NCBI GenBank assembly: GCA_041660105.1
Contig: JBAZWZ010000003.1
Span: forward strand, 25,527 to 89,526
DNA length: 64,000 nt
Reading direction: 5' to 3'
Origin: Minisyncoccota bacterium
Lineage (GTDB): Bacteria > Patescibacteriota > Minisyncoccia > Phycocordibacterales > UBA1550
Shown piece after piece: positions 1 to 60,109 of this stretch. The position numbers were made by a program, and so were the translations under genes. Under the pieces are notes generated by a model that was given only the letters and a program-made list of their open reading frames with translations, searched no databases and was not told where the DNA came from. Numbering within the stretch: the first letter of the stretch is position 1; every line of letters starts with the position of its first letter.

Positions 1-692
1 AGTAAATACTGAACTAAAAATATTTGAAACACCCAAATTTTTAAAGTTCGTAGCGAGACCATCCTCTCCTTCTAGATAAAAGAGATTATCAGTATGGTCC
101 TCAGCGAGGGCAATAAAAGGAAGGGAGTCAGGAAGATAAACTTCTTCAGTTTTTAAAAAACCGCCAGAAATGTTTTGTACAGAAGAAGAAGCAGAAGGAA
201 GGATGTTTACGATGCGCGATTTGATTATACCGTTTGCAACATCATCAACGAAACGCACTACAACACTATTTCCGTTGTTCCCCCAAAGAGCCTCAGAGAG
301 GTGTGGGCGGGTCTCATTGACGAGACGAGTTTCCGAGTAATTTGAAAGCTGCGTTTCAAAAATATTCCCCAACCCACGCTCAATATATCGAGCAGTGATG
401 TTTGTAATATTTCCTTTTTTATCCTTTGTCTCTGCAAAACCGACGCCTGCAACGGGAGCAGTGTGGAGTTGGTAAAGGCGAGGAAGAGCTTTTCCTTCTG
501 TGGGGGTAAAAGATGAGGGCTCCTCTTGAACAGCTGTCCCTTGTGTGCCCGTGCTTGGAGTCGAGGTGCTTCCGCTTGGGAAAGAAGTCACGGGTGTTTT
601 CGATGTTGTCCTTTGCGTGAAATACCAATATGCTCCACCGCCAAAAAGGGCGAGGATGATGATAATAAAAATTATTAATATTCTTTTATTCA
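1..692 (-). CDS. Partial (C-terminus off the window) membrane-anchored hypothetical protein, the distal gene of the T4SS-like operon. N-terminus reads MNKRILIIFIIIILALFGGGAYWYF (TM anchor), and the rest is Thr/Ser-rich and predicted extracellular.
   Basis: Manual translation of the minus strand from ATG at 692..690 reads through to position 1 without a stop. It is not in the ORF track because the stop lies outside the window. N-terminal hydrophobic helix. Confidence 0.5.
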
Positions 693-699
693 TAATGTA

Positions 700-1689
700 T
701 TATCTAAGGTTGAAGTGCCACTGATCACCTTGTATGTTTTGCCAACTAAGCATAATCCCCTCGTGTACCATAAACGCATTTATATCAGTATACCCAAATT
801 GAGAGAAATTACTGAAATTAACACCTACAGGAGAGAGGTCAACGCCTGTGCCGTACATATGTGGAGAGTTTTGGGAGTCAGGATTAGAAACGAGGCTTCC
901 AAGCCCGTGGGAGCTATACTCACTACCGACAGCAGCTTTTTCGTCTACACACAAAGGGTCGTTGTTGTCTTTAAAAGTATTGTATGCAGTGAACACTTGA
1001 AAAAGGTGTTTTTGGTAGTTGTAGGGGCGATAAGCAGAAGTAACGTTAACCGTATAGCCTGAGTTGAGCTCAGGCAGGGCATACTGCAGTTTAACAACCT
1101 CTTTGTTTAGTGCTGTAAGATTTGACTGGACTGTGGGGTCGTTTGAACTCCAAATAACATTGTTTCCGCCTTCCATTGCAGACGCGGCAGGGTCATCAAG
1201 AAGAGACATATCAGGAGTAGGAACCGAACAATCCGACCCAGGTGCTATTACTCCTGTCCCATTTCCTCCAACCCCAGGGGTAAGAGTAGGAGCCATATTG
1301 CGAACCGTAACAGAGTCGAGCGTAAGCTTAAAATTTACAAGATCAGGATTGATAGAGTTTAAAACAAGGTATGAAGAAAGAATGATAGTGAGACCAATGA
1401 GGGCATTGACGATACGCTCCTTTGCGCCACTTTTTGCATCAGGAGAAATCCCCGCAGCAACATATTGCGTCCCCCCAATAACCCCATAAAGTACGGCAAG
1501 CCCTGCTCCAAGCGCGATAAGAAGCTTGATCATTCCTGCAAGATAAGTAGGGAGGTCAGTGGTGCCTGTGCTCGGGTTTATAATACCGGGAAGGCTCTGA
1601 AGAGGTACATAACCTTGAGCATTTGCAACAAGTATCCCTCCACCAAGGGATACAATAACGAGTGAAAAAATGTATGCGAAGTGTTTCAT
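700..1689 (-). CDS. TrbC/VirB2-like pilin-like protein with a signal peptide, two hydrophobic helices (LAGMIKLLIALGAGLAVLYGVIGG and IVNALIGLTIILSSYLVL) and a roughly 200-aa C-terminal extension.
   Basis: The signal-peptide plus two-helix architecture is typical of conjugative pilins. The gene sits directly downstream of VirB4 in the same operon. The C-terminal extension is unusual. Confidence 0.4.
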   Translation of the reverse strand: MKHFAYIFSLVIVSLGGGILVANAQGYVPLQSLPGIINPSTGTTDLPTYLAGMIKLLIALGAGLAVLYGVIGGTQYVAAGISPDAKSGAKERIVNALIGLTIILSSYLVLNSINPDLVNFKLTLDSVTVRNMAPTLTPGVGGNGTGVIAPGSDCSVPTPDMSLLDDPAASAMEGGNNVIWSSNDPTVQSNLTALNKEVVKLQYALPELNSGYTVNVTSAYRPYNYQKHLFQVFTAYNTFKDNNDPLCVDEKAAVGSEYSSHGLGSLVSNPDSQNSPHMYGTGVDLSPVGVNFSNFSQFGYTDINAFMVHEGIMLSWQNIQGDQWHFNLR

Positions 1690-1695
1690 AATGTT

Positions 1696-2799
1696 TTAAA
1701 ATATTGGTTTACTTGTGGCGTCGCTTGCGGCGAAATTAATGCGAAGCTCGCGGCTTGCCGCCTGGAAGATATGAGGTAGACTTGTTACCGTAAGAGAAAT
1801 ATCGGTGCTTCCTTTTGCTCCGGTGTCATTTCGAAGAGTAATGTCCCTATTGTTGTTTTGGGTTTTGTTTCCATTTACAGACCAATTATATCGAAGCGTT
1901 TGCATACCGAGTGAATTATTTGAGAAAAAAAATGGCTCTGCGCTTAATGAAAGCTCTCTGTTTGAGAGGTATGTTTCAGCGCTAAACGATTGGTTGTATT
2001 GCACTCCCAAAAGAGGGTGGTTTTCATAAAAGAGAACAAAAGGATTAGAAAGAGGAAAAGAAGCAGTTGCCTCAGAATTGATGGTGTCGTCTATGGATGA
2101 AACTTTGACACTAACAGAAGAGTGGCTTAAAGGAATTGGTCCTGTAAAAGAAAAGGAATTTTTCCCATATCCAGAAAACTTTGTCTGCACCGTTCCTTCT
2201 TTCTGCCATGTATACACGAGATCCCCCGCCCCTAGAGCATTTTTAGGGTCGGTATTGTCAGGAGTTGCAATAACTGTTACCGCTGCTTCGGGGGAAAGTA
2301 ATGGTTTTCCTTTATAAAAAGGCGGGGTATAGGTGTCTGCTTGCCAAAACAGCGTGATCCCTACAGGAGTCCATGACAAGTCTCTTGTTAAGATTTGCCC
2401 ACCATTCGTGGCAATGGTAATAGTAAGGTTGGTCGTCTCCCCTGATGAGCCGTTTTGAAAACCAAAATGCCTTTCTCCTAAACCTTTCAAGACAACCTTG
2501 TTATTTAGAGACCAGTTAATATAAGCCTTGTCTAAATCCGTGAGATAACTTTCAACAGTGATATTCACCGAAGTGTTTGGGCCAGGGTTTTTTGGTGTTG
2601 TTGTAATTTGCAAGTATTGATACATTGAGTCCTCAAGAATTTTACCGGGCAAAGCGAGCTCCTTAGCAAGTTCGCTTTGCATGAGATTATCTATTGTTTG
2701 CTCCGAAGTAGTGGTAGATGTTTGTGCAAATACAAAGAGTGGCCCACACAAAAAACTCGCTACAAGAGTACTAACGAGCAGTTTGTGCTTTTGATACAT
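1696..2799 (-). CDS. Secreted hypothetical protein of the T4SS-like operon, N/T/S-rich.
   Basis: 367-aa ORF with an N-terminal signal peptide (LLVSTLVASFLCGPLFVFAQT). No recognisable catalytic motif. Confidence 0.5.
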   Translation of the reverse strand: MYQKHKLLVSTLVASFLCGPLFVFAQTSTTTSEQTIDNLMQSELAKELALPGKILEDSMYQYLQITTTPKNPGPNTSVNITVESYLTDLDKAYINWSLNNKVVLKGLGERHFGFQNGSSGETTNLTITIATNGGQILTRDLSWTPVGITLFWQADTYTPPFYKGKPLLSPEAAVTVIATPDNTDPKNALGAGDLVYTWQKEGTVQTKFSGYGKNSFSFTGPIPLSHSSVSVKVSSIDDTINSEATASFPLSNPFVLFYENHPLLGVQYNQSFSAETYLSNRELSLSAEPFFFSNNSLGMQTLRYNWSVNGNKTQNNNRDITLRNDTGAKGSTDISLTVTSLPHIFQAASRELRINFAASDATSKPIF

Positions 2800-2851: not shown

Positions 2852-4687
2852 TTATACAACCCCCTGCGCTTCTGCGTCTGCAAGCTCTCGTTTTGCCTTC
2901 TTAATTGCCAGGATTTGTCCAGGGTCTGAGGTGATGATCTGCTCTTCCGTATAAGAAGCAATCGAGCGGATAGCTACGTGCTTCATCCCCGCAAAAAAGA
3001 TACCCTCCCCCACTCCTGATTCCAAAAGGAGGAATTTCTCTTCGTCAGTGAGGTTAAATGCCTTTTGCACTGCGTCAATCGAAGTTGGCGACTGCTTGAG
3101 TAGGATTTGGATAGAAGAGTTGGTCATAATTGGCAAGCCGTATGGTGACTTCAAGAAATCGTTTACGTCTTGGGTGATGGTGGCGATGCCGAGGTAGTAC
3201 TTTCGACCGCGTTTTGCGAGCGCATAAAGAAACGCTGCAGTGTCTTCGGACTTCATCATCCACCATGCTTCGTCCACCACAAGGAGACGCTTCCTCAGAG
3301 TGCGACGTACTGCGTTCCAGATAAAGTGCGTCACGAGATACATTGCCACAGGCTTCAAGTCGTCCTCCATATCGCGCACCGAGAAGACGATGAATTTGCG
3401 GTTGATGTCGACATTTGAAGGATTATTGATGAAACCTGCCCATGATCCACGTGTGTATTTGGTGAGCTTCGTGAGAATCCCCTCCGCGCCCTCCATCCCC
3501 GAAAGCACCATTTCAAAATCAGAAAGAAGTGGAGGCTCGATAGCGGAGAAGTCAGAGTCTGGTGTAATGTCTTTGAGCGCGTAGGTTTCGGAGATTGCAC
3601 GGTCGACGATAGCGTCTTCTTCTGGGCTGAGGCCAGAAAGCATAATACGAAAGAGACCGACGAGGGAAATGATGTTTGCACGGAGCACGTCGGCGGGCGA
3701 CTCGTCTTCTCGAGGAACAGGAAGATCAAATGGATTGATATGGTGCTCTGAGTTGAGAGAAATATTAAAATAGCGCCCCCCCACTGCTTCGGCCATAGAC
3801 TCATACTCACGCTCGGGGTCGATGACGATGACATCGATGTCGAACATCAAGCTACGCAAAATCTCGAGCTTGGTTGCAAAGGATTTTCCGGAACCAGACT
3901 TCGCAAATGTTACCGAGTTGTAGTTCTCGAGAGAAAAGCGATCGAAGAGGACGAGAGAAGCGTTGTGTCTGTTTATGCCATAGAGAATCCCCTTGTCAGA
4001 AGTGAGGTCGAAGGAAACAAACGGGAAGAAACTTGAAAGAGGTTGGGAGTTGATTTTTTTTGTAACGACAATCTTGTCGTCGTTTACAGGAATGATACTT
4101 TGAAAAGCCTCCTCTTGTTGGAAGAGCGCAGGACGAACATAAATAAGTCGTGACTCAAGCATTGATTTGATCTCTGCCTCAACGTGCCCGAGCTCCTCTT
4201 CTGTGTCAGCATAGAGAGACAAATAAAGACCAACATCAAACATTTTTTCTTGAGCTTGCTGGAGGCGGTCACGAAGTTCTTCGAGGTCGCGATATGCCGA
4301 CTCGAGCATTGGGTCACGCACAAAACCTTTGCTCTCACGCACATTTATTTGGCTTTGAACCTCAGCAACTTTCTTTTCAAACTTCTTCATAATCCCCGCA
4401 GTGTCGACAGGGTGAATGTAAATAGCAATATCAAATACCTTATCAAGGTTGATGAGCGGAGAAAGCCAGTTGTCGGAAACAACACTTGGGTATGAAGTAA
4501 TAAAGAAAGAGCGAACATATTTTTCCCCCAAAATAAGCTCCTTTGATTCAACTTTTACCGCAGATGGAGCGATAACATCAGCAAGGTTGAGCCCTGTATC
4601 AACATAAAGATCTTGCGCAAGAATAGGCATAGAGTTTTTATCTCCGCCCGCATCCGTCCTCTGTGTGTTTCCAAAAAAATTAATCAT
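2852..4687 (-). CDS. virB4: VirB4/TrbE/CagE-family T4SS ATPase (Gram-positive ConE/TcpF-like), lacking the extreme N-terminal domain.
   Basis: Walker A is FAKSGSGKSFATK and Walker B is LLVVDEAWWMM. The N-terminal region (GEKYVRSFFITSYPSVVSDNWLSPL...IAIYIHP) matches the CagE_TrbE_VirB core. 611 aa. Confidence 0.85.
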   Translation of the reverse strand: MINFFGNTQRTDAGGDKNSMPILAQDLYVDTGLNLADVIAPSAVKVESKELILGEKYVRSFFITSYPSVVSDNWLSPLINLDKVFDIAIYIHPVDTAGIMKKFEKKVAEVQSQINVRESKGFVRDPMLESAYRDLEELRDRLQQAQEKMFDVGLYLSLYADTEEELGHVEAEIKSMLESRLIYVRPALFQQEEAFQSIIPVNDDKIVVTKKINSQPLSSFFPFVSFDLTSDKGILYGINRHNASLVLFDRFSLENYNSVTFAKSGSGKSFATKLEILRSLMFDIDVIVIDPEREYESMAEAVGGRYFNISLNSEHHINPFDLPVPREDESPADVLRANIISLVGLFRIMLSGLSPEEDAIVDRAISETYALKDITPDSDFSAIEPPLLSDFEMVLSGMEGAEGILTKLTKYTRGSWAGFINNPSNVDINRKFIVFSVRDMEDDLKPVAMYLVTHFIWNAVRRTLRKRLLVVDEAWWMMKSEDTAAFLYALAKRGRKYYLGIATITQDVNDFLKSPYGLPIMTNSSIQILLKQSPTSIDAVQKAFNLTDEEKFLLLESGVGEGIFFAGMKHVAIRSIASYTEEQIITSDPGQILAIKKAKRELADAEAQGVV

Positions 4688-4704: not shown

Positions 4705-5361
4705 TTATCGTACGTCGACCTTCTTCTCTGCTTCCCCAGGGTTGAATAGGCGGTAATAAAGCTCGGTGAGCTCCTCTGTCCCAAGAGGAACCACGCGCAC
4801 ACCGGTGCGAGAAAGTCCCTGACTGATAATCCCCGCTCGTTGTTCAAGTTGTGTGCGTGCCTCTTCAAATGCTTCAGCCGCGCTTTGAGAAGGAACACCA
4901 CTTGCCTCCTTCTTTTTCCCAAAAAGACCAGAAAGACCGCCACTTGAAGCAGGAGCGTTGGTGACCGACTTTGGAGGTGCATAGGGAACAACAATAACAA
5001 AAAGCTTACTCATAATATTTGTCGACTGAGCAATCGTTTTTACGAACCCCATATATTCGCGAATCTGAATCTTTAATAATTCATTAACCTCTTCCTTGAG
5101 GCGACCTTCAAGGAGGATAAGGTAAGGGCGAATATCAAGACGACGCGATTGAATAAAAATCTGTGTGGAGAACTCGAGAGAGTTGAGAAAACTTTGAAAC
5201 TGCATCAAGACTGCTTGTTGCTCGTCGCCTGACTTGAGGGCGAGGTTCACCGAAGACGCCATAAGAAGCATACGAATAGTGCCATCTTTCAAAATCACGA
5301 CACCGTCGCGGATCTCTTTTACGGGAACAAAATCTTGTGCTGCTTTTGATTTGACTGCCAT
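4705..5361 (-). CDS. VirB4 N-terminal-domain-like protein, encoded separately and in a different frame from the ATPase ORF.
   Basis: 218 aa. The region VKEIRDGVVILKDGTIRMLLMASSVNLALKSGDEQQAVLMQFQSFLNSLEFSTQIFIQSRRLD resembles the N-terminal domain of Gram-positive VirB4 homologues (Tn916 Orf16/ConE type). It ends 17 bp before the VirB4 ATPase ORF. Confidence 0.45.
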   Translation of the reverse strand: MAVKSKAAQDFVPVKEIRDGVVILKDGTIRMLLMASSVNLALKSGDEQQAVLMQFQSFLNSLEFSTQIFIQSRRLDIRPYLILLEGRLKEEVNELLKIQIREYMGFVKTIAQSTNIMSKLFVIVVPYAPPKSVTNAPASSGGLSGLFGKKKEASGVPSQSAAEAFEEARTQLEQRAGIISQGLSRTGVRVVPLGTEELTELYYRLFNPGEAEKKVDVR

Positions 5362-5830: not shown

Positions 5831-5838
5831 AGGTCTAT

Positions 5839-6680: not shown

Positions 6681-8975
6681 TTAGTGTTTTGCAGCTGATG
6701 CATCCTTTGGAGCTGAGTCTTTGTCCTTTTTGCCACCCTTGTCCTCTCCTAATTGCTTCTTTTTTTCCTGGATCTTTTCTATATCTGCTTCTGCTGACTC
6801 GAACTTCTTGAGCGCCTTTTCTGCTCTCCTTTTTTCGACAATTGCCATAGCGTGCATATCGGTATCATCGGGGTGTTTAGTTTTTACATATTCAAGTTGA
6901 GCTTCTGCTTTTGCCAATTTGTCCTCAAGCTCTTTAAGGGCCACCTCCTTTGCTTTTTTTGCTTCGGGGCTATCAAGCTCCATATCGTGAGGAATCTTAA
7001 GAGTTGTTTTAAAACTATCTGTTATTGCTTTCTCTTTTTCATCAAGGGAGATTCGTTTCTTTTCGTTCTTGTCAATCTCGTCTGCGGCTTGACCTCTCCC
7101 AATATTTGCTCCTGTAAAGGCTCTAAAGTTGGCAGCTGCCATTCCTGCCGCAGCGCCTGGTATACCGCCAGCTATTGCACCAGCTACTCCCCCTGCGATA
7201 GACCCTGCTATGCCACCAGACCTAAGCTGCTGTGCGTAAGCGGTGGCAGCGGTTCCCTCAATCTTTTTGCCTGTTTTAACCATCTCTCCCTTTTCGTTCT
7301 TTTTGTATTCATCAACCATCGCTTTGACAGCTTTGCCCCCCGCTCCTGTTGTAATCTTCTTTCCAAATGCAATATCAGTTGCCTTTGCTTCGGAAACAGT
7401 CTTCTGGAAGTTTCCTGCCCCACCCTTTCCTATACCAAGAGCAGCCCCCGCTCCAAATGGAGCATTACGAACGTCAAATGTTGCATTTGCCCCCTTATCA
7501 GTAAGATCGTAGGCAAGACGTCCAACCGATGATTCAGCTGCCCAAGCCTTGAAGCCTTCCCGCTCGGTGAGGTTGCGCGCTGCGCGACCAACAGTCTTTT
7601 GCGCAACAAGTGAAGCCCCGCCCGTAGCAAGGCCCATCGCACCGCTCACGAGATTTGACACTCCCTCACCCGTTGAACCAGCCATTCCCTCTGCAAACTT
7701 GAGCGCCTCCTGCAGTGCCTTGATAAGAAGAGCCGCAATCATTACGGGAGTAAGAATATACATAAAGTCGAAAGAACCACCAGCTGGAGGATCTTTTAAG
7801 ACACCACCCAAAATGCCATCTCCCGCACTTATTGCTTTCATAATGATATAAACAAAAAAGAGAAATACAGGGACGACGAAAGCTTGACTAATGAGCTCAT
7901 GAAGCCACTCATTAAATTTATTTGCCTTCCCAGGAAGTGCGATAGAAATGAAAGCAAAAGGAGAAAGTATCATTAGAGACCAAAATACAACAAGGCGTCT
8001 AACAAAAAGAAGAGCGGCTTTTAAAAAGATATACGCAGCGAAACCACTAACGATTGTCGCAACAATAAAAACAATGATCGCATCCATTGCGTGGACTTTT
8101 CCCGATACCAAAAGAAAGTTCTGAGGCTGGAAGGCCCCTGCCAAACTCGCTGAAATATCACGTTCGGGGACACCAACAACCGCAAAGCTTTGTTTATCAG
8201 GGGGGAGCTCAGTTCCCATACTGCTGTAAATCCCCACAGCCAAAACGTTCCCCGCGTCAATAATTATTTGAGAGAAAAAGAGACTAAAATTGATAAGAAG
8301 TGCCATCACAATAACCTTGAGCACGGTCCCTCTCCAGTCCTTTGCCCCCAAAATCGTCTGCACACCCGTATAAATGAGGATGAAGATAAAGAGCATATTT
8401 GAGAAGTCTCGCACTACTCCCCACGTGCTGTTTACGAAGTCTTGTTTAATGAAATTACTATCAATACTGAGCGTGAGCATTGCGTCAAATATGAATCCAG
8501 AACCTGCGAGGAGCCACGAGGCGGGCTTATATACACCATAATAGATAACAATAGGAATACACTCAGCTAGAGTGCCTGATGTCCCCATAAAGCCGTTGAG
8601 GGGGTTACACTTCAACTGCAATAAAATAGGGTCTGTCTCTGCATTAGCAGCAGCCTGTGCAGCATTTGCATTTGCGTTGTTTGCGTTTGTTTGGATTGCG
8701 GCACCTTGTTGTTCGGCCATCACAGAAACTCCAACGTGGCAGTTTGAAGCAATGACAAAACTGCTGTTGCCTGCTCTCGTGGACTGCGCTGCGCTACACG
8801 AGGCGCTGTCTGCGTATGGTCCAGAGACTTGTATGGTGCCTGGGTTCCCCCCCACGCCTACCTTTGCGTTATACCAAAAGAAATAACTATCAGCACCAAA
8901 AACAGTCGTCGCTCCGCCCAGCAAGAAAACGATTCCGAAGAGAAACGCTGTAATTTTTGGGAAGAGTTTTCTCAT
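6681..8975 (-). CDS. VirB6/ConG/TcpH-like polytopic membrane protein with a Gly-rich and Lys/Glu-rich coiled-coil C-terminal tail.
   Basis: 764 aa. Signal peptide, then at least 6 TM helices in the central region, then GIAGSIAGGVAGAIAGGIPGAAAGMAAA and a K/E-rich coiled coil. Its size, topology and position next to PrgI/VirB4 fit VirB6-like proteins of Gram-positive T4SS. Confidence 0.55.
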   Translation of the reverse strand: MRKLFPKITAFLFGIVFLLGGATTVFGADSYFFWYNAKVGVGGNPGTIQVSGPYADSASCSAAQSTRAGNSSFVIASNCHVGVSVMAEQQGAAIQTNANNANANAAQAAANAETDPILLQLKCNPLNGFMGTSGTLAECIPIVIYYGVYKPASWLLAGSGFIFDAMLTLSIDSNFIKQDFVNSTWGVVRDFSNMLFIFILIYTGVQTILGAKDWRGTVLKVIVMALLINFSLFFSQIIIDAGNVLAVGIYSSMGTELPPDKQSFAVVGVPERDISASLAGAFQPQNFLLVSGKVHAMDAIIVFIVATIVSGFAAYIFLKAALLFVRRLVVFWSLMILSPFAFISIALPGKANKFNEWLHELISQAFVVPVFLFFVYIIMKAISAGDGILGGVLKDPPAGGSFDFMYILTPVMIAALLIKALQEALKFAEGMAGSTGEGVSNLVSGAMGLATGGASLVAQKTVGRAARNLTEREGFKAWAAESSVGRLAYDLTDKGANATFDVRNAPFGAGAALGIGKGGAGNFQKTVSEAKATDIAFGKKITTGAGGKAVKAMVDEYKKNEKGEMVKTGKKIEGTAATAYAQQLRSGGIAGSIAGGVAGAIAGGIPGAAAGMAAANFRAFTGANIGRGQAADEIDKNEKKRISLDEKEKAITDSFKTTLKIPHDMELDSPEAKKAKEVALKELEDKLAKAEAQLEYVKTKHPDDTDMHAMAIVEKRRAEKALKKFESAEADIEKIQEKKKQLGEDKGGKKDKDSAPKDASAAKH

Positions 8976-8984: not shown

Positions 8985-10103
8985 TTATTTTTTGAAGATA
9001 CCCTTGATGGCATCGTTGGATGCTTTAGTAACGATTGCGTCAATAATTTTACTTAGGTTGTCTGCAAGTCCAAGACGATCGAAGGATGCTCCTGTTGCCT
9101 TGGAAAGCTGATCAGAAATCAATTTACCCGGCGTTACTTTAGGGCACCAGATTCTCGCCATAGCAGCCTTGTCTGCATCACTAGCAGGGGCTATAAATTG
9201 AGGGTTTCCATCTGGTCCCGTAACTATCGTCGCTGTAGTCGAGGTAAAAGCGTCTTTGGTTGCCTCATCGGGCCAGTTACACTTTTCTGGGTCTGAGTCG
9301 TCAACCACGCTCAAGAAGCCACCATTCAAACTCAGCTGTCGTCTCGACTCTTCCAGAAGACCAGATTGTTGCTTGGTGAGCTCACTACTTGTGATAACAG
9401 AAACACCAAATGGATTGCCGTTATCATTGAGCGCTTTTTCAAAATACTGCCACGTGAAGGCAATCTTTCCTCTATAAAAATCAGAAGCATTTACTGAGGG
9501 AAAGGGGCACGCAACAGCTGCTCTATATACGGGGGCAGGATCAGCTTGCCCCAAGACAACCCATTGTTTTAGGTCATTTTTGAAGAGCGCATCAAAGTCA
9601 CACATTTCAAGCCCGTCAATCGTGCGCATAAGGTTTCCTGCGACAGAATCAAGGAGTTCCTTCTCCATTTGTTTTGGGTCTATAGCGTAGTTTGGGGAGC
9701 CGTGCATACCGCCCTTGATCCAGCTGATAGTCTCTTCGGTAAAGTTGTCGAGCATTAACTGTCCTGCCTTATAGGCAATACAGTCAGCCAATGGTTTCCC
9801 GTGCGCAGACCAAAAATTTGAGGCCTCAGCGTCTGCTGCTCCGCTCGCTGTTGTTGCTGCGACGCTCGCGTCTGAGGATGGAACAGCTATAGCCTCGTTT
9901 ACTGTAGTTACTCCCCCAAAAATCGCAAGATAACCCGCTTTTGCTCCCTCCATTAGGGATAGATTAGCGGCAGCTACCCCCGCACAGTCAACAGTCACTG
10001 ACTCCGCTGCAGCATAGGTGGCCCGAGGCATAAAAAAGGAAACACTCAAAAGCAGAGAAATACAGAGAATGGGGAGAAGTTTATATTTTTTTTGAGTGTT
10101 CAT
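8985..10103 (-). CDS. Secreted hypothetical protein (possible cell-wall-active or T4SS accessory protein).
   Basis: 372 aa with a signal peptide (LLPILCISLLLSVSFFMPRATYAAA). No SLT, CHAP or NlpC motif recognised. Confidence 0.45.
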   Translation of the reverse strand: MNTQKKYKLLPILCISLLLSVSFFMPRATYAAAESVTVDCAGVAAANLSLMEGAKAGYLAIFGGVTTVNEAIAVPSSDASVAATTASGAADAEASNFWSAHGKPLADCIAYKAGQLMLDNFTEETISWIKGGMHGSPNYAIDPKQMEKELLDSVAGNLMRTIDGLEMCDFDALFKNDLKQWVVLGQADPAPVYRAAVACPFPSVNASDFYRGKIAFTWQYFEKALNDNGNPFGVSVITSSELTKQQSGLLEESRRQLSLNGGFLSVVDDSDPEKCNWPDEATKDAFTSTTATIVTGPDGNPQFIAPASDADKAAMARIWCPKVTPGKLISDQLSKATGASFDRLGLADNLSKIIDAIVTKASNDAIKGIFKK

Positions 10104-10112
10104 ATAGATAAT

Positions 10113-10901
10113 TTATTTCTTTTGACTGAACAGTGATCCTGTTTGAGAAACCATCGAGAGTCCACTGTTGTATTTTGCAATACCTCGCATCCCCACGACG
10201 GGATCATTGATAATACTTTTCAGATCAATAACCCCAGAGAGAATGGTGGCATAACTCTCAATCATATACAGATGAAGACTAATCTCAGAACGAGGAACTT
10301 TTATAGAAAGAAGTGTGTTGATAAACTTTTGATAAACTGATATAGATTTTGAGAGAGGATTAAGTAGTGTTGCATCCCCCGCGCTGATTGCTTTATTTAC
10401 AACGGTAAGCTCCTCAAATATATCCTCACTAAAAAGTGTGTTGATGGCTTCAAGCATAGATTTTTTATACTGAGTGACTGCAGAAGTGCTTGTTTCTATA
10501 ACCACCAAGTCCTTTTCAGAATATACTTTTGTTGTGATTGCCGCTGGGGTAGTATCAAGAAGATTTTGAGCAAGAAGCGATACATCTTCGTCGCTCATCG
10601 TCGTCGTCGACATCCCTGTTTGAAAGGCAGCGTAGCTACTGAGAAGTTTTTGAGCCATCAAGGCCGTTGTGGAAGTAGCCTCGGCTGAGGCTGGGTCGTT
10701 ACTTTTTTTAGAAGAACCAAACGTGGTCGACGATGATGTTTGAGGAACAACACTGAGGGAGTCCTTCCATCCCCTATCGGCTGCCGTCCCAAGCTTGTCA
10801 ACGTATGTTACAGACGTACTTTTCCACGCAAAGAACACAATGCCTATCCCAACAAGAACTGCAAATAAAATAGAGAGTGTTTTTTTGTATTGCAATATCA
10901 T
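10113..10901 (-). CDS. Bitopic membrane protein (N-terminal TM plus about 230-aa extracytoplasmic domain), VirB8/ConB-like by architecture only.
   Basis: 262 aa with a single N-terminal TM (LSILFAVLVGIGIVFFAW). Domain size and operon position resemble VirB8-like components. No sequence motif confirmed. Confidence 0.35.
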   Translation of the reverse strand: MILQYKKTLSILFAVLVGIGIVFFAWKSTSVTYVDKLGTAADRGWKDSLSVVPQTSSSTTFGSSKKSNDPASAEATSTTALMAQKLLSSYAAFQTGMSTTTMSDEDVSLLAQNLLDTTPAAITTKVYSEKDLVVIETSTSAVTQYKKSMLEAINTLFSEDIFEELTVVNKAISAGDATLLNPLSKSISVYQKFINTLLSIKVPRSEISLHLYMIESYATILSGVIDLKSIINDPVVGMRGIAKYNSGLSMVSQTGSLFSQKK

Positions 10902-10980: not shown

Positions 10981-12000
10981 CTACTTATAATAGTAACTTG
11001 TGATTGCTTCAAGGGCAACCGCGGTTGTATAGGAGCGACTACCCCCTTTCAGCGTATCCCCTTTGTAGAAGTCTCCAAGGCTCCAGCCTCCATCATTTTG
11101 TTGAGTTCTGAACAGGTAATCAAAAGATTTATTATAAAAATCTTTATTTTGGTATCCAAAATCAATCAAAGCATTTAAAGCAAGAGCTGTAGTAAATTCA
11201 TTATCTCCAATAATCCCTGTTTTCTTTTGTGAGCCTACAATTTTTTGAATAATAAGCTCTTTTTCGTTCCCAAAACAATCGACCCCCTCGTTGTATGCTC
11301 GAGCCATTGCGTAATACAAATCATAATCATCAATATACCAGTAATGAGAGTTAGATTCTTGCCCTTCTTTGATTAGGCGAGATGTGTAATCGCAAATTTT
11401 TGAGCTCGTAATGTTGTTATTTAAATACAGGGCAACATTTACGTTTACAACCGAATCCGTGTCATTCCTTGCCCCGTTTTCCTTAAACCATGTGTAGTAG
11501 ATTCCGCTATCGTTTACATTTTTATTTATAATTTTGTGATTATCGCTGATTCCATACCCATGCTTTTCTAGCAGGTAAGAGATTAGGGCTGTGTCGTCTA
11601 TGTCTGGAGTGACAGAATCTTTGGGGAAAAACCTCCAAATATTATTTGTTGGTCTATTTTTTATAAAAAAATCGATGCTTTTTTCTCTTACTAAATCAAG
11701 ATAATCATTTGTATATCTCTCAGAAATCTTATCAAGAGAGTAAAGAGACGATGCTGTCATAAAAAAGGATTCATCTGGAAGACAACTTTTTAATATTTTT
11801 GTATTTATACAAAAAGAAGATTGTATTTCCCCCGTCGGTAGCTGGTTTTTGTAAATGTATATCACCCCTTTTGCAACGACGCTCTTTAGTTGTTGCTTCT
11901 GGTTTCCTAAAATGACTACACTCAATAGACTAAAAAGTAAAACAAAAATCAGTGTGCCCAAGAGTGGTTTATTCTTTTTCATATTGTTGTAGTTTAACAT
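10981..12000 (-). CDS. Secreted alpha/alpha-toroid repeat protein (prenyltransferase/squalene-cyclase-like QW repeats).
   Basis: N-terminal TM/signal (LLGTLIFVLLFSLLSVVILG). C-terminal repeats include a QW-type motif (RTQQNDGGWSLGDFYKGD, IVGSQKKTGIIGDNEFTTALALNALIDFG). Confidence 0.4.
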   Translation of the reverse strand: MLNYNNMKKNKPLLGTLIFVLLFSLLSVVILGNQKQQLKSVVAKGVIYIYKNQLPTGEIQSSFCINTKILKSCLPDESFFMTASSLYSLDKISERYTNDYLDLVREKSIDFFIKNRPTNNIWRFFPKDSVTPDIDDTALISYLLEKHGYGISDNHKIINKNVNDSGIYYTWFKENGARNDTDSVVNVNVALYLNNNITSSKICDYTSRLIKEGQESNSHYWYIDDYDLYYAMARAYNEGVDCFGNEKELIIQKIVGSQKKTGIIGDNEFTTALALNALIDFGYQNKDFYNKSFDYLFRTQQNDGGWSLGDFYKGDTLKGGSRSYTTAVALEAITSYYYK

Positions 12001-12066
12001 ATCGTCGTTATCTTAAAACCAAAGCCCCGCTTGGTGTATACCAAGCGGGGCTTTGGAGAACTAATT

Positions 12067-14301
12067 TTACCAGTCACTGCCACCACCAGACGAAGGTGTT
12101 GGAGTAATTTTTACTGTTATTGACTGCTCTACTTTCCCAGGGGGTGTTAGTCCTGGTTTTGCAATTGGACCATAACAAACAAGGGTAACAACGGCTGGAG
12201 GATTTGAGGGGGTTGTGACAAATCCTGTGTTGGTCCCCTCCATTCGGGTCCCATCACCAGCTTCGACAGTAATTGTTGATGTAGTGCCCCCTGAATCTCC
12301 GAATCCTGGGTTGGTCACCGTTCTTTGTTCACTGTGTTTTGGTACCTGAGAGCCTACATAGCCAGGCTTTACACGCGCTTTTCCTTGAGCCGTGACACTA
12401 CCAAGAAGCCCTCTTACGGAACTCCATGTTGTGGTTGCGGTTTCTCTCTCATCAAATATTTCAAGATATGCATCTGCTCCAATCTTACAACTGGAAGCAT
12501 TTGAAGCAGCCCAGCGAATTTCCGACCAATCACCAACCTTTGCTTCGGCAATAGCATCTGGGTCTGCTTTGAATTCCTCAATTTCTGGAGGGGCGTTATA
12601 GAGACCCCCTGATGTGTCAAGTCGAAGATCTCCCCAGTTTGTCACTGTGTATCCAGCACCAACGCACTTAAACTCCAAATTAACTTTTGTTGAAACACCA
12701 CTAACAAATTTCAAAGTTACAGAATCATCAAACAATACACGTGATGTGCTCGAAATTGGAAACGAGTCATTTTTTTCAAAAGGGGTTTCACTACTTCCTT
12801 GGACCGCCAAAGCCTTCCCATCGAGAACCTTGATAACACAACTATCTGCATCTTTGATTTTCCACCAAATCGTACCAATTTCATTTCGTGCGATAACTCC
12901 ATCATTTGGTGTTGTTCCTACGGTTATCTTTGGTCCCGGAGTTCCTGTTCCTACGGTTATTGGTTCAACTGATGATGAGTTCCAGTTGAGAAAATGTGAG
13001 GCGCTGTTCGTAGTTCCGCCCCCTGAGCACTTAATAATAAACTCAACATTGTTGTCATTCCCGCTTATCTTTACCTTCCAGGACCCCGACATTGATGGAA
13101 GCGCCTGCGTAAATCCTGAGTATGTTGACCCATAAGTGTTTGTTTTTCCGTCTGCGAGGACAACGGTTATCTGCCTCATATTTTGTATGGTGCAAGAGGT
13201 TGCCTCTGTTACTTTCCAAGACACCGTCGAGGTTTCGCCAAAACCGATCGTATCGGGGCTCATAGTAAGACTGATTTGTGGACCAACAGGGTTTGTGCTT
13301 GTTGCTGTATAGCTTGTTGAATTGGTTGTATTTGTTCCACTCCCTGTGTTTGTCCCACTGCCTGTATTCGTACCACTACCACTTCCGGTGTTCGTCCCAC
13401 TTCCTGTGTTTGTGCCACTCCCACTACCTGTATTTGTACCGCTACCTGCATCTGTGCTTGCTCCTACGGCAACTCGAATACAAGCCGATTTTTCAAACAA
13501 TGTTGAGCTTTTTTGAGCAGTCTGACAGTCACTGCTGGAGAGGAATGTTGAAGTTTGAAAAGGAGTATTTGGTCCTGCGTCAGCTTTCCCTTTAAAAATG
13601 TATACATATTTGTCAGAGCTTCCTGTGGTTGTTGGCTTCACGATACCGATAGTAACTGATTTTTTTGCAGTGCCGTTTGCTCCCGTACAGCTAATATCGA
13701 AAGTATAAGGTGTTTGAGGCGAAACAGTTTTGGTCCCTGTTAGTCGCAGTGTGTTGCCTGCCCCATCAACACATCTTGTTGTATTGAGTGTCGTCCAAGA
13801 AATTATTGACTGAGAATTTGCCTTGACCTCAATAGGAAAAGCAGTGATGTTTATGATTGGATATGTCGTAACAGCAACCTTGATTGATTGAATAGTTGTA
13901 CCTTTTGGATTTGTGCATACAATATCCATTGTGTAGTCTTCCCTTGGAGTTATGGAGAGACTGCCATTCAGGCGAAGGGCGTTACCGTTACTGTCTGCAC
14001 AGCTCGTTGCATTTGTTGAGTTCCAGGAAATAATAGCTGATTGCCCAGGAGAAACGACAGGTACATCTGCGGACACGGTAACAAGTGGAACAACAAGGTT
14101 TTGGGAACTCGTCGACACACCTTCTGTAGGAGTCGGAAATGAGTAAGTATCTTTAACTTGCCCAGTTTGACCTTCGTTTTGAGGCGCAACCGCCCCTCTT
14201 GTGTAAATAAACACAATCGCAATAATAACAACAAGCACGATAAGACCAATAATAAGAAACTTTTTTTTCTTCTCGTCCTGCATAATATTATTTATGTCCA
14301 T
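12067..14301 (-). CDS. Large N-terminally anchored surface protein with duplicated Ig-like domains and a (GSGTNT)n low-complexity linker.
   Basis: 744 aa with an N-terminal TM (FLIIGLIVLVVIIAIVFIY). Two homologous roughly 75-aa domains (ISWNSTNATSCADSNGNALRLNGSLSITPREDYTMDIVCTNPKGT / ISWTTLNTTRCVDGAGNTLRLTGTKTVSPQTPYTFDISCTGANGTAKK). Linker GSGTNTGSGSGTNTGSGTNTGSGSGTNTGSGTNTGSGTNTT. Confidence 0.55.
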   Translation of the reverse strand: MDINNIMQDEKKKKFLIIGLIVLVVIIAIVFIYTRGAVAPQNEGQTGQVKDTYSFPTPTEGVSTSSQNLVVPLVTVSADVPVVSPGQSAIISWNSTNATSCADSNGNALRLNGSLSITPREDYTMDIVCTNPKGTTIQSIKVAVTTYPIINITAFPIEVKANSQSIISWTTLNTTRCVDGAGNTLRLTGTKTVSPQTPYTFDISCTGANGTAKKSVTIGIVKPTTTGSSDKYVYIFKGKADAGPNTPFQTSTFLSSSDCQTAQKSSTLFEKSACIRVAVGASTDAGSGTNTGSGSGTNTGSGTNTGSGSGTNTGSGTNTGSGTNTTNSTSYTATSTNPVGPQISLTMSPDTIGFGETSTVSWKVTEATSCTIQNMRQITVVLADGKTNTYGSTYSGFTQALPSMSGSWKVKISGNDNNVEFIIKCSGGGTTNSASHFLNWNSSSVEPITVGTGTPGPKITVGTTPNDGVIARNEIGTIWWKIKDADSCVIKVLDGKALAVQGSSETPFEKNDSFPISSTSRVLFDDSVTLKFVSGVSTKVNLEFKCVGAGYTVTNWGDLRLDTSGGLYNAPPEIEEFKADPDAIAEAKVGDWSEIRWAASNASSCKIGADAYLEIFDERETATTTWSSVRGLLGSVTAQGKARVKPGYVGSQVPKHSEQRTVTNPGFGDSGGTTSTITVEAGDGTRMEGTNTGFVTTPSNPPAVVTLVCYGPIAKPGLTPPGKVEQSITVKITPTPSSGGGSDW
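13330..13450 (-). repeat. In-frame imperfect 18-nt tandem repeat tract encoding (GSGTNT)n inside the surface protein gene.
   Basis: Direct reading shows repeated acc/act-ccx-gtg/gta-ttt-gt units. The opposite-strand ORF 13322..13516 translating VFVPLP repeats is its shadow. Confidence 0.7.
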
Positions 14302-60108: not shown

Positions 60109-60109
60109 T

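What the first reader, a model, noticed from the sequence alone, without database searches (positions are those of the whole stretch)
1..14301. Gram-positive-type minimal T4SS-like cluster with no relaxase or coupling protein in view
Thirteen co-directional genes encode a VirB4 ATPase, a PrgI/VirB3-like protein, a VirB6/ConG-like polytopic protein, a VirB2-like pilin-like protein with a 200-aa C-terminal extension, a bitopic VirB8-like-architecture protein and several secreted or surface proteins. The surface proteins include an alpha/alpha-toroid protein and a 744-aa Ig-repeat protein. No relaxase, VirD4/TcpA, oriT or integrase is visible. The apparatus may therefore serve something other than canonical conjugation, such as DNA uptake or release, or contact-dependent interaction of an episymbiotic cell with a host.
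Basis: partly seen in the sequence, partly recalled or inferred. Interest (0 to 1): 0.6.

Follow-up and report, generated by a model that had tools for sequence, protein, structure and literature searches.

The report
Patescibacterial chromosomal T4SS with hydrolase-tipped pilin
This is an ordinary member of the relaxase-less type IV secretion gene cluster already described in ultrasmall Patescibacteria (CPR) bacteria; what I found no published mention of is that its only pilin-like protein is fused to a cell-wall-cutting enzyme, and related species carry other enzymes in that position.

Summary
On the minus strand of window 1-14301 lie 11 complete genes and one gene cut by the window edge, 12 in all rather than 13. 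They encode VirB4, a TrsD-like protein, PrgI/VirB3, an extended VirB6-like polytopic protein and a VirB2-like pilin, plus secreted or membrane-anchored proteins. No relaxase or coupling protein lies in the 64 kb.

The window comes from a Yonathbacteria-like Paceibacteria (Patescibacteria/CPR) chromosome. Gene order is conserved in 80 related species-level loci. In the closest relative the cluster sits between ksgA and yidC-rnpA-dnaA-dnaN, next to the replication origin.

This class is already published: Wang et al. 2023 (Cell) and Quinonero-Coronel et al. 2025 (Microb Genom). The system is described there as related to monoderm conjugation machinery, relaxase-less and chromosomal. It is essential for epibiotic growth in a cultured Saccharibacterium.

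I added three things.
- The 200-aa pilin extension is a VanY-like zinc peptidase with invariant metal ligands.
- In relatives the same pilin anchor carries varied C-terminal domains, several of them wall hydrolases (NlpC/P60, M15_4, SLT) and many unidentified.
- Two further conserved components exist: a three-Ig-domain protein and a TolB-like propeller protein truncated at position 1.

Interest is modest.

The parts
1..693 (-). N-terminal 231 codons of a 452-aa bitopic protein (TM aa 5-23, Ser/Thr/Pro-rich linker, TolB/PD40-like beta-propeller). It is truncated by the window edge and is a conserved member of the cluster.
   Evidence: tblastx against relatives. The full gene lies on two other contigs that carry the identical pilin. 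It follows the pilin gene in 68 of 80 loci. The family profile hits TolB 7mx5 at E 1.4e-4, and the PD40 repeat matches 4 of 38 members.
700..1689 (-). VirB2-like pilin fused to a VanY-like (LAS / M15B-type) zinc peptidase, 329 aa. It is the only pilin-domain gene in the 64 kb.
   Evidence: Pfam T4SS_pilin above its cut-off, with a weak VanY hit. 26 full-length homologues share the layout. AF2 model and Foldseek search. Pilin HMM scan of the whole window.
1360..1551 (-). Pilin hairpin (aa 47-110). It follows a signal peptide with a conserved AxAQ motif that I read as the cleavage site.
   Evidence: PF18895 match. Model helices at 46-78 and 83-112. A22, A24 and Q25 are nearly invariant. TM segments at 53-71 and 93-111.
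703..1227 (-). C-terminal peptidase domain (aa 155-329), joined to the pilin hairpin by a disordered linker (aa 117-151).
   Evidence: pLDDT is mostly above 90 in this domain. Invariant residues are S218, R221, Y225, Q226, H277, D284, D322 and H325, giving the pattern H-x6-D ... D-x-x-H. Top Foldseek hits are VanYB 5zhf, 5hnm and 6a6a (prob 0.99-1.0, E 4e-3 to 7e-3, but TM-scores of only 0.23-0.39 and rmsd about 7 A), followed by the Sonic hedgehog N-domain. PF02557 is precomputed for 10 of the 26 homologues.
1696..2799 (-). Membrane-anchored or secreted protein with three tandem Ig/FnIII-like beta-sandwich domains. It lies immediately downstream of virB4 in almost all relatives.
   Evidence: Present in 79 of 80 loci. 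More than 415 homologues, nearly all without a Pfam hit and named 'hypothetical' where a name is given. AF2 pLDDT 79 with three beta-sandwiches. Foldseek returns only generic adhesin and Ig-tandem hits.
2852..4687 (-). VirB4 ATPase of monoderm type, 611 aa.
   Evidence: Pfam. PDB 4ag5 at E 3e-42 against TrwK at 3e-6. 70-96% identical across 80 Patescibacteria loci.
4705..5361 (-). TrsD-like soluble protein, 218 aa.
   Evidence: NCBIfam TrsD/TraD E 1.1e-5, plus matches to N-terminal segments of VirB4 models; all are below the curated cut-offs. Present in 79 of 80 loci, always just upstream of virB4. No TM segment.
5366..5845 (-). PrgI / VirB3-like membrane protein, 159 aa.
   Evidence: PF12666 at 30.5 bits against a cut-off of 27. 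Present in 74 of 80 loci.
5886..6677 (-). Acidic, Pro/Glu-rich soluble protein of unknown role. Poorly conserved.
   Evidence: No Pfam or NCBIfam hit. Found in 15 of 80 loci at about 27% identity. No TM segment.
6681..8975 (-). Extended VirB6-like polytopic protein. Layout: signal peptide, an exo-domain of about 170 aa with conserved Cys residues, six TM segments (aa 191-418, nt 7722-8405), and a hydrophilic C-terminal tail of about 340 aa.
   Evidence: Hydropathy. The window protein has no direct HMM hit. Of 35 syntenic homologues, 12 hit the NCBIfam MMCAP2_0566 conjugal transfer protein (best 6e-9), 7 hit the Mbov_0396 ICE TM protein (7e-8), 2 hit CD3337/EF1877 and 2 hit Pfam TrbL (2.6e-4).
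8985..10103 (-). Secreted protein. Its family has variable length and adhesin-like modules in relatives.
   Evidence: Signal or TM segment at aa 7-25. Found in 26 of 80 loci. Some members of a mixed scan set (homologues of this gene, 10113-10901 and 5886-6677) carry F5/8 type C, TSP3 and Ig-like domains; I attribute these to the long homologues of this gene.
10113..10901 (-). Bitopic membrane protein.
   Evidence: One TM segment at aa 8-26. Found in 18 of 80 loci. The family profile finds nothing in PDB sequences.
10981..12000 (-). Membrane-anchored alpha/alpha-toroid-like protein. A lineage-specific neighbour, not core.
   Evidence: Weak SQHop_cyclase_C and squalene-cyclase hits below cut-off. 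Found in 1 of 80 loci.
12067..14301 (-). 744-aa membrane-anchored repeat protein. A lineage-specific neighbour, not core.
   Evidence: Recurring W..(S/T)C motif, four pattern hits. No Pfam hit. Found in 2 of 80 loci.

Best explanation
The region is the chromosomal, vertically inherited, non-conjugative T4SS of a Yonathbacteria-like Paceibacterium, of the type already described for Patescibacteria. It lies next to the replication origin.

Shown here. The gene set is VirB4, TrsD-like, PrgI/VirB3, VirB6-like and one VirB2-like pilin, plus two further conserved envelope proteins: a three-Ig-domain protein and a TolB-like propeller protein. Their order is conserved across Paceibacteria. No relaxase or coupling protein is in view. 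The pilin carries a C-terminal VanY-like zinc peptidase with intact metal ligands.

Inferred mechanism.
1. VirB4 sits at the cytoplasmic face of the membrane, docked through TrsD and PrgI, on a channel built from the VirB6-like protein.
2. The pilin is exported by Sec and cleaved after its AxA motif. It inserts as a two-helix hairpin. By analogy with VirB2/TraA topology, its C-terminus and therefore the peptidase face outward.
3. The peptidase cuts peptidoglycan stem peptides locally. This either opens the cell's own wall for the apparatus, which is the job VirB1 does in other systems, or attacks the wall of the host bacterium at the contact site.
4. The Ig-domain protein, the propeller protein and the variable secreted proteins form or decorate the wall-spanning and surface part.
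5. The machine most likely moves proteins or other non-DNA cargo between epibiont and host, and supports attachment, rather than transferring DNA.
For: Identity and taxonomy:
- VirB4 is 96% identical to that of a Paceibacterota MAG and 88-92% identical to Yonathbacteria MAGs. 591 candidate stretches in the genome collection were confirmed as relatives, and every named organism among the 80 loci kept is a Patescibacterium.
- The identical proteins are NCBI entries WC791_01685, _01690 and _01715 of a 'Candidatus Paceibacterota bacterium', all annotated as hypothetical.

Components.

Synteny and purifying selection:
- The order ksgA ... VirB6-like - PrgI - TrsD - VirB4 - Ig protein - pilin - propeller protein recurs in 80 loci.
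- VirB4 has a median identity of 73%, against 51% for the housekeeping KsgA in the same loci.

Origin-proximal position. In the closest relative the genes that follow are yidC, rnpA, dnaA and dnaN.

No conjugation genes in view. No relaxase, T4CP or element integrase lies in the 64 kb or in that flank.

Peptidase:
- Invariant S-x-Y-R, H-x6-D and D-x-x-H in 26 homologues.
- AF2 domain with pLDDT mostly above 90.
- VanYB, then hedgehog (LAS fold), as top Foldseek hits.
- The fusion is a stable family: 33 of 45 of the closest new cluster representatives also have the pilin domain.

Wall hydrolases recur at this position. In related loci the same pilin anchor carries NlpC/P60 (CwlO E 7e-13), and in related proteins Peptidase_M15_4 or SLT.

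Literature. The T4SS is essential for epibiotic growth of S. epibionticum, lacks a recognisable relaxase or coupling protein, and was proposed to export proteins or serve an alternative role (PMC10633639). A phylum-wide survey reached the same conclusion and noted dnaA, dnaN, rnpA and ksgA as neighbours (PMC12102498).
Against: - Function is inferred entirely by homology and context. No cargo, effector or immunity gene was identified.
- The VirB6 assignment for the window protein is transitive, resting on hits by its homologues.
- The TrsD hits are below the curated cut-offs. Profile-profile comparison with this clade's own VirB4 N-terminus found nothing.
- The window protein's VanY Pfam score (19.2 bits) is below the gathering score of 25. 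The Foldseek E-values are only about 4e-3, with rmsd about 7 A.
- A 200-aa globular domain at the pilin C-terminus might prevent polymerisation into a pilus, so 'pilin' may here mean only a membrane anchor.
- A T4CP or relaxase could lie elsewhere in the genome. The 2025 survey found VirD4-like genes far from virB4 in many genomes.
Confidence: 0.75

Rival explanations
1. It is an integrative conjugative element, or the decaying remnant of one. Its relaxase, coupling protein and integrase would lie outside the window or have been lost recently.
For: The components are homologous to monoderm conjugation modules: TrsD of pGO1-type systems, PrgI of pCF10, and the Mycoplasma ICE families Mbov_0395, 0396 and 0397. 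The window is cut at its left edge.
Against: - The flanks are housekeeping genes on both sides: ksgA, ubiA and pcrA on one side, and yidC, rnpA, dnaA and dnaN in the closest relative on the other.
- The same chromosomal position and gene order recur in 80 species-level genomes.
- VirB4 is more conserved than KsgA.
- There is no pronounced compositional break at 1-14 kb.
- The only recombinase is XerC/D-like and 15 kb away.
- In the survey, relaxases were found in only 103 Patescibacteria genomes, and only 15 lay close to virB4.
Confidence: 0.04
2. It is a DNA uptake or DNA release machine, analogous to the Helicobacter ComB system or the Neisseria gonococcal genetic island. Those systems need no conjugative relaxase-T4CP pair at the uptake step.
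For: No T4CP or relaxase is in view. Patescibacteria must scavenge nucleotides. A ComM-like gene (25336-27018) and type IV pilus genes lie in the same window.
Against: - In S. epibionticum a comEC deletion abolished competence (the review also credits the type IV pili with conferring competence) without affecting viability, so the essentiality of the T4SS cannot be due to interaction with ComEC (FEMS review).
- From my own knowledge, ComB systems have the VirB7-10 envelope core, which is absent here.
- Nothing in the cluster carries a recognised DNA-binding or nuclease domain.
Confidence: 0.08
3. It is only a surface organelle and cell-wall remodelling module. The VirB4 motor would extract pilin-anchored hydrolases and adhesins from the membrane for display, giving attachment and self-wall turnover, with nothing translocated into another cell.
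For: - Nine of the 12 products have an N-terminal TM segment or signal peptide.
- The conserved accessory proteins are Ig-tandem and propeller proteins, and homologues in the set scanned carry lectin-like domains.
- The pilin carries a wall hydrolase.
- No cargo gene was identified.
Against: A VirB6-type channel protein with a large cytoplasmic tail, plus VirB4, TrsD and PrgI, is the conserved translocon core of systems that do move substrates. The published essentiality of the system during growth on a host suggests more than adhesion, but does not exclude this reading.
Confidence: 0.13

Closest known systems
Patescibacteria-clade T4SS (S. epibionticum SEML1_0006-0019, Wang et al. 2023; phylum survey including class Paceibacteria, Quinonero-Coronel et al. 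2025)
   Same: VirB4 with TrsD, PrgI/VirB3, VirB6-like and PF18895 pilin. No relaxase. Chromosomal. Near dnaA, dnaN, rnpA and ksgA, as reported for Paceibacteria.
   Different: In S. epibionticum the pilins are an array of six short genes of 381-417 nt. Here there is a single 329-aa pilin fused to a peptidase. The three-Ig-domain protein and the TolB-like protein are not among the components the sections of the survey I read name. No NTF2/VirB8-like protein was demonstrated here.
MPF_FATA conjugative T4SSs of monoderms (pGO1 Trs, pCF10 Prg, Tn916/CTn families, Mycoplasma ICE Mbov_0395-0397)
   Same: Sequence-detectable homology of VirB4, TrsD, PrgI, the polytopic membrane protein and, weakly (E 0.02), the pilin-like protein. 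No outer-membrane core.
   Different: No relaxase, T4CP or integrase. Not mobile. Fixed chromosomal location. The wall hydrolase is fused to the pilin rather than being a separate VirB1-type protein.
VirB1-type T4SS wall hydrolases of monoderms (Tn916 Orf14 / CD419 NlpC-P60, TcpG, PrgK, TraG of pIP501)
   Same: A peptidoglycan hydrolase encoded within the T4SS cluster. The NlpC/P60 versions in related loci match CwlO and the Tn916-like hydrolases.
   Different: In the window the enzyme is an M15B/VanY-like metallopeptidase. It is tethered to a VirB2-like two-helix anchor by a disordered linker of about 35 aa. The enzyme family changes from species to species.
T4CP-less effector T4SSs (Bordetella Ptl, Brucella VirB)
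   Same: They work without a coupling protein and without a relaxase (citing the literature).
   Different: Those are diderm systems with VirB7-10 cores and known protein cargo. No cargo is known here.
VanY / LAS-family D,D-peptidases (PDB 5zhf VanYB)
   Same: S-x-Y-R, H-x6-D and C-terminal His motifs, and the overall fold.
   Different: D-x-x-H replaces the usual E-x-x-H (the usual form is from my own knowledge). There is an N-terminal pilin fusion. Identity is low (15-17%). Substrate is unknown.

Membership tests
Patescibacteria-type T4SS (Quinonero-Coronel 2025 / Wang 2023) | VirB4 belonging to the Patescibacteria clade that is sister to MPF_FATA | tested here: inconclusive
   No tree was built. 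Every named organism among the 80 loci kept is a Patescibacterium, at 70-96% identity. The best solved relative is a Firmicute VirB4 (E 3e-42) rather than the proteobacterial TrwK (3e-6). This is consistent with the feature but is not a phylogenetic placement.
Patescibacteria-type T4SS | TrsD homologue encoded next to virB4 | tested here: met
   NCBIfam TrsD/TraD E 1.1e-5, below the curated cut-off. It is adjacent to virB4 in 79 of 80 loci.
Patescibacteria-type T4SS | PrgI/VirB3 homologue near virB4 | tested here: met
   PF12666 at 30.5 bits against a gathering score of 27.
Patescibacteria-type T4SS | VirB6-like polytopic protein near virB4 | tested here: met
   Six TM segments plus large hydrophilic domains. 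The support is transitive: 12 of 35 syntenic homologues hit MMCAP2_0566 (6e-9), 7 hit Mbov_0396, and 2 hit TrbL. The window protein itself has no direct hit.
Patescibacteria-type T4SS | VirB2-like pilin (PF18895/PF04956) near virB4 | tested here: met
   PF18895 at 28.6 bits against a cut-off of 26.6.
Patescibacteria-type T4SS | No relaxase associated; chromosomal location near dnaA/dnaN/rnpA/ksgA (Paceibacteria) | tested here: met
   No relaxase domain in the 64 kb. ksgA lies at 16124-16927. yidC, rnpA, dnaA and dnaN lie beyond the left edge in the closest relative.
Conjugative T4SS / ICE (MPF_FATA) | MOB relaxase | tested here: not met
   None in the window or in the relative's flank. The rest of the genome was not seen.
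Conjugative T4SS / ICE (MPF_FATA) | VirD4 or TcpA coupling protein | tested here: not met
   No T4CP-type domain in any sizeable ORF of the window. The rest of the genome was not seen.
Conjugative T4SS / ICE (MPF_FATA) | Element integrase and boundaries (att repeats, variable presence) | tested here: not met
   The only recombinase is a XerC/D-type gene 15 kb away, among housekeeping genes. The position is identical in 80 genomes. Att repeats were not searched for.
VirB8 / NTF2-like T4SS component (for 10113-10901) | NTF2-like alpha+beta periplasmic domain following one TM helix | not tested
   One TM helix is confirmed. The family profile finds no VirB8, TraM, PrgL or TcpC in PDB sequences.
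LAS / M15B VanY-type peptidase (for aa 155-329 of the pilin protein) | Zinc ligands H-x6-D plus a C-terminal His, and the S-x-Y-R substrate-binding motif | tested here: met
   S218, R221, H277, D284 and H325 are invariant in 26 homologues.
LAS / M15B VanY-type peptidase | Family HMM above threshold, and LAS fold | tested here: inconclusive
   The window protein scores 19.2 bits on VanY against a cut-off of 25. PF02557 is precomputed for 10 of the 26 homologues. Foldseek's top three hits are VanYB (prob 0.99-1.0, E 4e-3 to 7e-3), followed by hedgehog.
TolB / PD40 beta-propeller (for window 1-693 and its continuation) | PD40 repeats forming a propeller | tested here: inconclusive
   The family profile hits only TolB chains (best E 1.4e-4). 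PD40 matches 4 of 38 members at E >= 5e-3. No structure model was made.

The most novel reading that the evidence does not exclude
The VirB2-like 'pilin' of Paceibacteria may not be a plain pilus subunit. It may be a conserved T4SS-handled anchor that presents a hypervariable C-terminal enzyme, in effect a polymorphic effector cassette.

Evidence from 75 pilin-domain genes next to virB4 in 71 of the species-level loci:
- 59 carry 100 aa or more beyond the pilin domain.
- These extensions fall into more than 30 unrelated sequence clusters.
- Four different peptidoglycan-hydrolase families occur at this position, in these loci or in related pilin proteins: VanY/M15B, M15_4, NlpC/P60 and SLT.
- There is also an abundant uncharacterised Cys-rich domain with invariant E, H, D and H-W-H residues.

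On this reading the enzymes breach the host bacterium's wall at the contact site, and their turnover between species tracks the wall chemistry of different hosts. That would make the pilin tip the host-range determinant of the epibiont.
Probability: 0.25. Interest if true: 0.65.

Novelty: new member of a known kind. Interest (0 to 1): 0.33.

Why it matters
The cluster itself adds nothing new. It is one more example, all of its proteins publicly annotated as 'hypothetical', of the T4SS that reviews already single out as the first T4SS essential for the bacterium that carries it.

Three things here are useful.
1. A cleaner parts list for the Paceibacteria version, with two more conserved envelope proteins.
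2. A concrete answer to where the VirB1-type wall hydrolase is in these genomes: it is fused to the pilin.
3. A testable idea about how uncultivated epibionts get through a cell wall. If the variable pilin-borne enzymes act on the host wall, their type could be read from metagenomes as a predictor of host range. For Paceibacteria hosts are, to my knowledge, mostly unknown.

Tried and rejected
- Profile searches of PDB sequences with the family alignments of the VirB6-like protein, the TrsD-like protein, the bitopic 262-aa protein and the commonest unannotated pilin extension, which I call B1. Nothing significant came back.
- A phmmer search of the window's peptidase domain alone against PDB gave only chance hits.
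- A Pfam scan of the B1 domains gave only chance hits.
- Profile-profile comparison of B1 with the VanY-type family gave probability 1.7%. My reading of B1 as a LAS-like metallopeptidase (H ... D ... H-x-H) remains a guess from motifs.
- Profile-profile comparison of the TrsD-like family with this clade's own VirB4 N-terminus gave probability 0.2%. The gene is therefore not a detectable paralogue of that domain. It may instead correspond to the extreme N-terminal piece of longer VirB4 proteins, as its NCBIfam matches suggest.
- The promoter and terminator scan of 1-15000 found no more sites than shuffled sequence. No operon structure is claimed.
I rejected them because they lie out of frame inside the conserved truncated gene.
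- I considered an ICE origin and rejected it on context and synteny.

Full report
**What is in the sequence**

Window 1-14301 carries eleven complete genes and one truncated gene, all on the minus strand and separated by gaps of 4 to 80 nt.

Pfam gives clear calls for three of them.
- VirB4 at 2852-4687: TraG P-loop E 1e-25, AAA_10 and CagE_TrbE_VirB.
- PrgI/VirB3 at 5366-5845: PF12666 at 30.5 bits against a cut-off of 27.
- A VirB2-like pilin at 700-1689: PF18895 at 28.6 bits against a cut-off of 26.6, over aa 47-110.

VirB4 has Walker A (AKSGSGKS, read) and Walker B (LLVVDE). Its best solved relative is the Firmicute VirB4 4ag5 at E 3e-42, against 3e-6 for the proteobacterial TrwK.

It matches NCBIfam TrsD/TraD at E 1e-5, and also N-terminal segments of VirB4 models.

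The 764-aa product of 6681-8975 has a signal peptide, an exo-domain of about 170 aa, six transmembrane segments and a hydrophilic tail of about 340 aa. This is the architecture of an 'extended VirB6'. The protein has no direct HMM hit. Among 35 syntenic homologues, however:
- 12 hit the MMCAP2_0566 conjugal transfer family (best 6e-9);
- 7 hit the Mbov_0396 ICE membrane protein family;
- 2 hit CD3337/EF1877;
- 2 hit Pfam TrbL.

The remaining products are secreted or single-pass membrane proteins, apart from the soluble acidic protein from 5886-6677.

Window 1-693 (-) is the first 231 codons of a 452-aa protein that continues beyond the window. The small ORFs listed at 258-628 are out-of-frame noise inside it.

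**Where it comes from and how it is placed**

The VirB4 protein is 96% identical to that of a Paceibacterota MAG and 88-92% identical to Candidatus Yonathbacteria MAGs. Every named organism among the 80 loci kept from the one-genome-per-species collection is a Patescibacterium.

The window's own proteins are present, residue for residue, as 'hypothetical protein' WC791_01685, _01690 and _01715 of a Candidatus Paceibacterota bacterium.

The rest of the window is ordinary chromosome. It contains ksgA, ubiA, pcrA/uvrD, comM, a XerC/D-type recombinase, the CCA-adding enzyme, tRNAs, RNase Y, clpP, trigger factor, nusA, a type IV pilus operon and tpiA. It contains no relaxase and no VirD4/TcpA domain.

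In the closest relative, the genes after the truncated one are yidC, rnpA, dnaA and dnaN. The cluster therefore sits between ksgA and the replication origin.

**Conservation**

I searched all twelve proteins against the 80 related loci. The order is fixed:

ksgA ... (262-aa bitopic) - (372-aa secreted) - VirB6-like - (acidic protein) - PrgI - TrsD-like - VirB4 - 367-aa protein - pilin - 452-aa protein

Loci containing each protein:

| Protein | Loci out of 80 |
|---|---|
| 367-aa protein | 79 |
| TrsD-like | 79 |
| PrgI | 74 |
| 452-aa protein | 68 (about 64 loci have enough downstream sequence) |
| pilin domain | 61 |
| VirB6-like | 59 |
| 372-aa secreted | 26 |
| 262-aa bitopic | 18 |
| acidic protein | 15 |
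| 744-aa repeat protein | 2 |
| alpha/alpha-toroid-like protein | 1 |

The last two are neighbours, not parts of the machine.

VirB4 has a median identity of 73% in these loci, against 51% for KsgA. That fits strong purifying selection and vertical inheritance. It does not fit a mobile element.

**Comparison with what is known**

This is a published class.

Wang et al. 2023 (PMC10633639) found by Tn-seq that the T4SS genes of Southlakia epibionticum are essential for epibiotic growth. They reported that:
- the subunit set most resembles Gram-positive conjugative systems;
- pilin genes lie within the cluster;
- coupling and relaxase proteins are not recognisable;

Quinonero-Coronel et al. 2025 (PMC12102498) surveyed the phylum. 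They reported:
- a monophyletic Patescibacteria VirB4 clade next to MPF_FATA;
- TrsD, PrgI/VirB3, VirB6 and PF18895 pilins near virB4;
- relaxases in only 103 genomes;
- VirD4-like genes mostly far from virB4;
- in Paceibacteria, dnaA, dnaN, rnpA, ksgA and rpmH as typical neighbours.

The window matches that description point for point.

In S. epibionticum a comEC deletion abolished competence without affecting viability. The review concludes that the essentiality of the T4P and T4SS cannot be due to interaction with ComEC.

**The pilin extension**

I aligned 26 full-length homologues at 45-62% identity. The invariant residues are S218, R221, Y225, Q226, H277, D284, D322 and H325. These form the S-x-Y-R, H-x6-D and (D/E)-x-x-H signature of VanY-type (M15B, LAS-fold) zinc peptidases.

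The AlphaFold2 model shows:
- a signal peptide;
- a two-helix hairpin (helices 46-78 and 83-112);
- a disordered linker (aa 117-151);
- a compact domain (aa 155-329) with pLDDT mostly above 90.

Foldseek's three best PDB matches are VanYB structures (probability 0.99-1.0, E 4e-3 to 7e-3). Next comes the Sonic hedgehog N-domain, another LAS-fold protein.

The evidence has limits. The Pfam VanY hit of the window protein is below threshold (19.2 bits against 25), although PF02557 is recorded for ten of the homologues.

The fusion is not an assembly accident. A search of 1.84 billion cluster representatives with the C-domain alone found a small family of 223 representatives at E <= 1e-3. Among the 45 closest new representatives, 33 also carry the pilin domain at the N-terminus.

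The window has no other pilin-domain gene.

**The same anchor carries other enzymes in relatives**

Among the 120 closest relatives of the pilin protein:
- 27 have the VanY-type domain;
- about 59 have an unannotated Cys-rich domain that I call B1 (consensus CTS ... TGGTEYWLH ... VDL ... HWHVCY);
- about 22 have a second unannotated type (WRITESWPPT ... H ... CH..G.C.D);
- six have long dockerin-containing tails;
- single sequences have Peptidase_M15_4 or SLT.

In the 80 species-level loci, a pilin-domain HMM finds 75 genes in 71 loci. All lie between the 367-aa gene and the 452-aa gene, usually one per locus. Of these, 59 have 100 aa or more after the pilin domain (median 178 aa). The extensions fall into more than 30 BLAST-unrelated clusters.

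The second-largest cluster (nine loci) is an NlpC/P60 endopeptidase. It matches CwlO at E 7e-13 and also the Tn916-like conjugative wall hydrolases.

So at least four unrelated peptidoglycan-hydrolase families occupy the same position on the same anchor. This is the strongest argument that wall cleavage is the selected function there.

By contrast, the S. epibionticum pilins are six short genes of 381-417 nt. The 2025 survey does not mention pilin fusions. [quoted passage not shown] Three literature searches found no description of the fusion. The library searched is incomplete, so I claim only that I found none.

**Two more conserved components**

The 367-aa protein encoded directly after virB4 has more than 415 homologues. 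Nearly all lack a Pfam hit, and those that carry a name are called hypothetical. Its model has an N-terminal anchor, a helical segment and three beta-sandwich domains. Foldseek returns only generic Ig/FnIII tandems such as adhesin stalks.

The truncated 452-aa protein has one transmembrane helix and a Ser/Thr/Pro-rich linker. Its family profile hits only TolB propellers (best E 1.4e-4), and PD40 repeats appear in a few members.

The set of homologues scanned for the 372-aa secreted protein, the 262-aa bitopic protein and the acidic protein includes members with discoidin, TSP3 and Ig-like modules. I attribute these to the long homologues of the 372-aa protein, which reach up to about 990 aa.

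**How it most likely works**

Shown here:
- the parts list;
- their conservation;
- the chromosomal, origin-proximal location;
- the absence of conjugation-specific genes in view;
- intact catalytic residues in the pilin-borne peptidase.

Inferred:
- VirB4, with TrsD and PrgI, energises a VirB6-type channel.
- The pilin is Sec-exported and cleaved after AxA. It sits in the membrane as a hairpin with both ends outside, as VirB2/TraA does, so the peptidase works in the wall compartment on a flexible tether.
- The peptidase either opens the cell's own wall for the apparatus, as a VirB1 surrogate, or attacks the host's wall.
- The Ig-tandem, propeller and lectin-bearing proteins form or decorate the wall-spanning and surface part.
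- Cargo is protein or another non-DNA molecule exchanged with the host.

None of these steps was tested here. No cargo or immunity gene was recognised.

**Rivals**

- **ICE or ICE remnant.** Contradicted by context, synteny and conservation.
- **DNA uptake or release.** Not excluded, but disfavoured by the published genetics and by the lack of any DNA-handling domain.
- **Display and wall-remodelling organelle without translocation.** This remains a serious alternative.

**Verdict**

The system is a new member of a known kind.

The pilin-anchored, species-variable wall hydrolases are the one aspect that looks under-described and worth following up.

Noticed in passing
L001-L080, between the homologues of window 1696-2799 and window 1-693 (for example L053:12892-13908, L002:12972-13853, L004:12943-13920): Across the Paceibacteria loci the single virB4-linked pilin-domain gene is usually long. 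59 of 75 have 100 aa or more after the pilin domain. The C-terminal part falls into more than 30 unrelated clusters, including NlpC/P60 (nine loci), M15_4-like, VanY-like and several unknown types.
   Followed up: partly
proteins P0028-P0120 (for example P0047), C-terminal ~150 aa; also L002, L005, L007, L010-L012, L014, L019, L045, L076: The commonest pilin extension (B1) is a domain with four or more conserved Cys and invariant E, H, D and H-W-H residues (CTS ... TGGTEYWLH ... VDL ... HWHVCY). It has no Pfam or PDB sequence match. It may be a new metallopeptidase-like family, but nothing tested supports that yet.
   Followed up: partly
window 700-1689, 4705-5361, 6681-8975 (and homologues): The pilin (weakly, E 0.02), the TrsD-like protein and homologues of the VirB6-like protein hit NCBIfam models named after consecutive Mycoplasma ICE genes: Mbov_0395 pilin-like, Mbov_0396 TM protein and Mbov_0397 VirB4. 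This hints that a pilin-like protein is not foreign to the MPF_FATA lineage, whereas the survey suggests pilins were co-opted from diderm systems.
   Followed up: no
window 4705-5361 with 2852-4687: VirB4 here is short (611 aa). The TrsD-like protein matches the extreme N-terminal segments of longer VirB4 models, yet shows no similarity to this VirB4's own N-terminus. Together they total about 830 aa. TrsD might be a split-off N-terminal piece of VirB4 rather than a paralogue.
   Followed up: partly
window 54538-62124 (+): A type IV pilus operon: PilB-like ATPase, PilC-like platform, and three N-methyl pilin-like genes. One of these (58486-60108, 540 aa) carries a lactonase-type beta-propeller behind the pilin signal. 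The 458-aa gene at 60748-62124 has no Pfam hit.
   Followed up: no
window 14606-15631 (+): A divergently transcribed protein with a peptidoglycan-binding domain and an IPT/TIG domain lies between the cluster and ksgA. A homologue sits in a similar place in nine related loci.
   Followed up: no
window 21159-23693 (-): An 844-aa ORF with no Pfam hit, lying between pcrA/uvrD and an M23+LysM peptidase gene (24181-25230).
   Followed up: no
window 34982-35055 and 37305-37376: tRNA-Arg and tRNA-Pro overlap the listed 5' ends of the ORFs at 34996-35391 and 37336-38478. The mechanical ORF starts there are over-extended.
   Followed up: no
window 1-14301 versus the origin: The origin (dnaA) lies to the left of the window in the closest relative, yet the T4SS genes are transcribed leftwards, towards it. 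That would be head-on to replication. GC skew across 1-14 kb is weak and does not settle the point.
   Followed up: no
window 25336-27018 (-): A ComM-like (Mg-chelatase family) gene, usually linked to natural transformation, lies 11 kb from the T4SS cluster.
   Followed up: no
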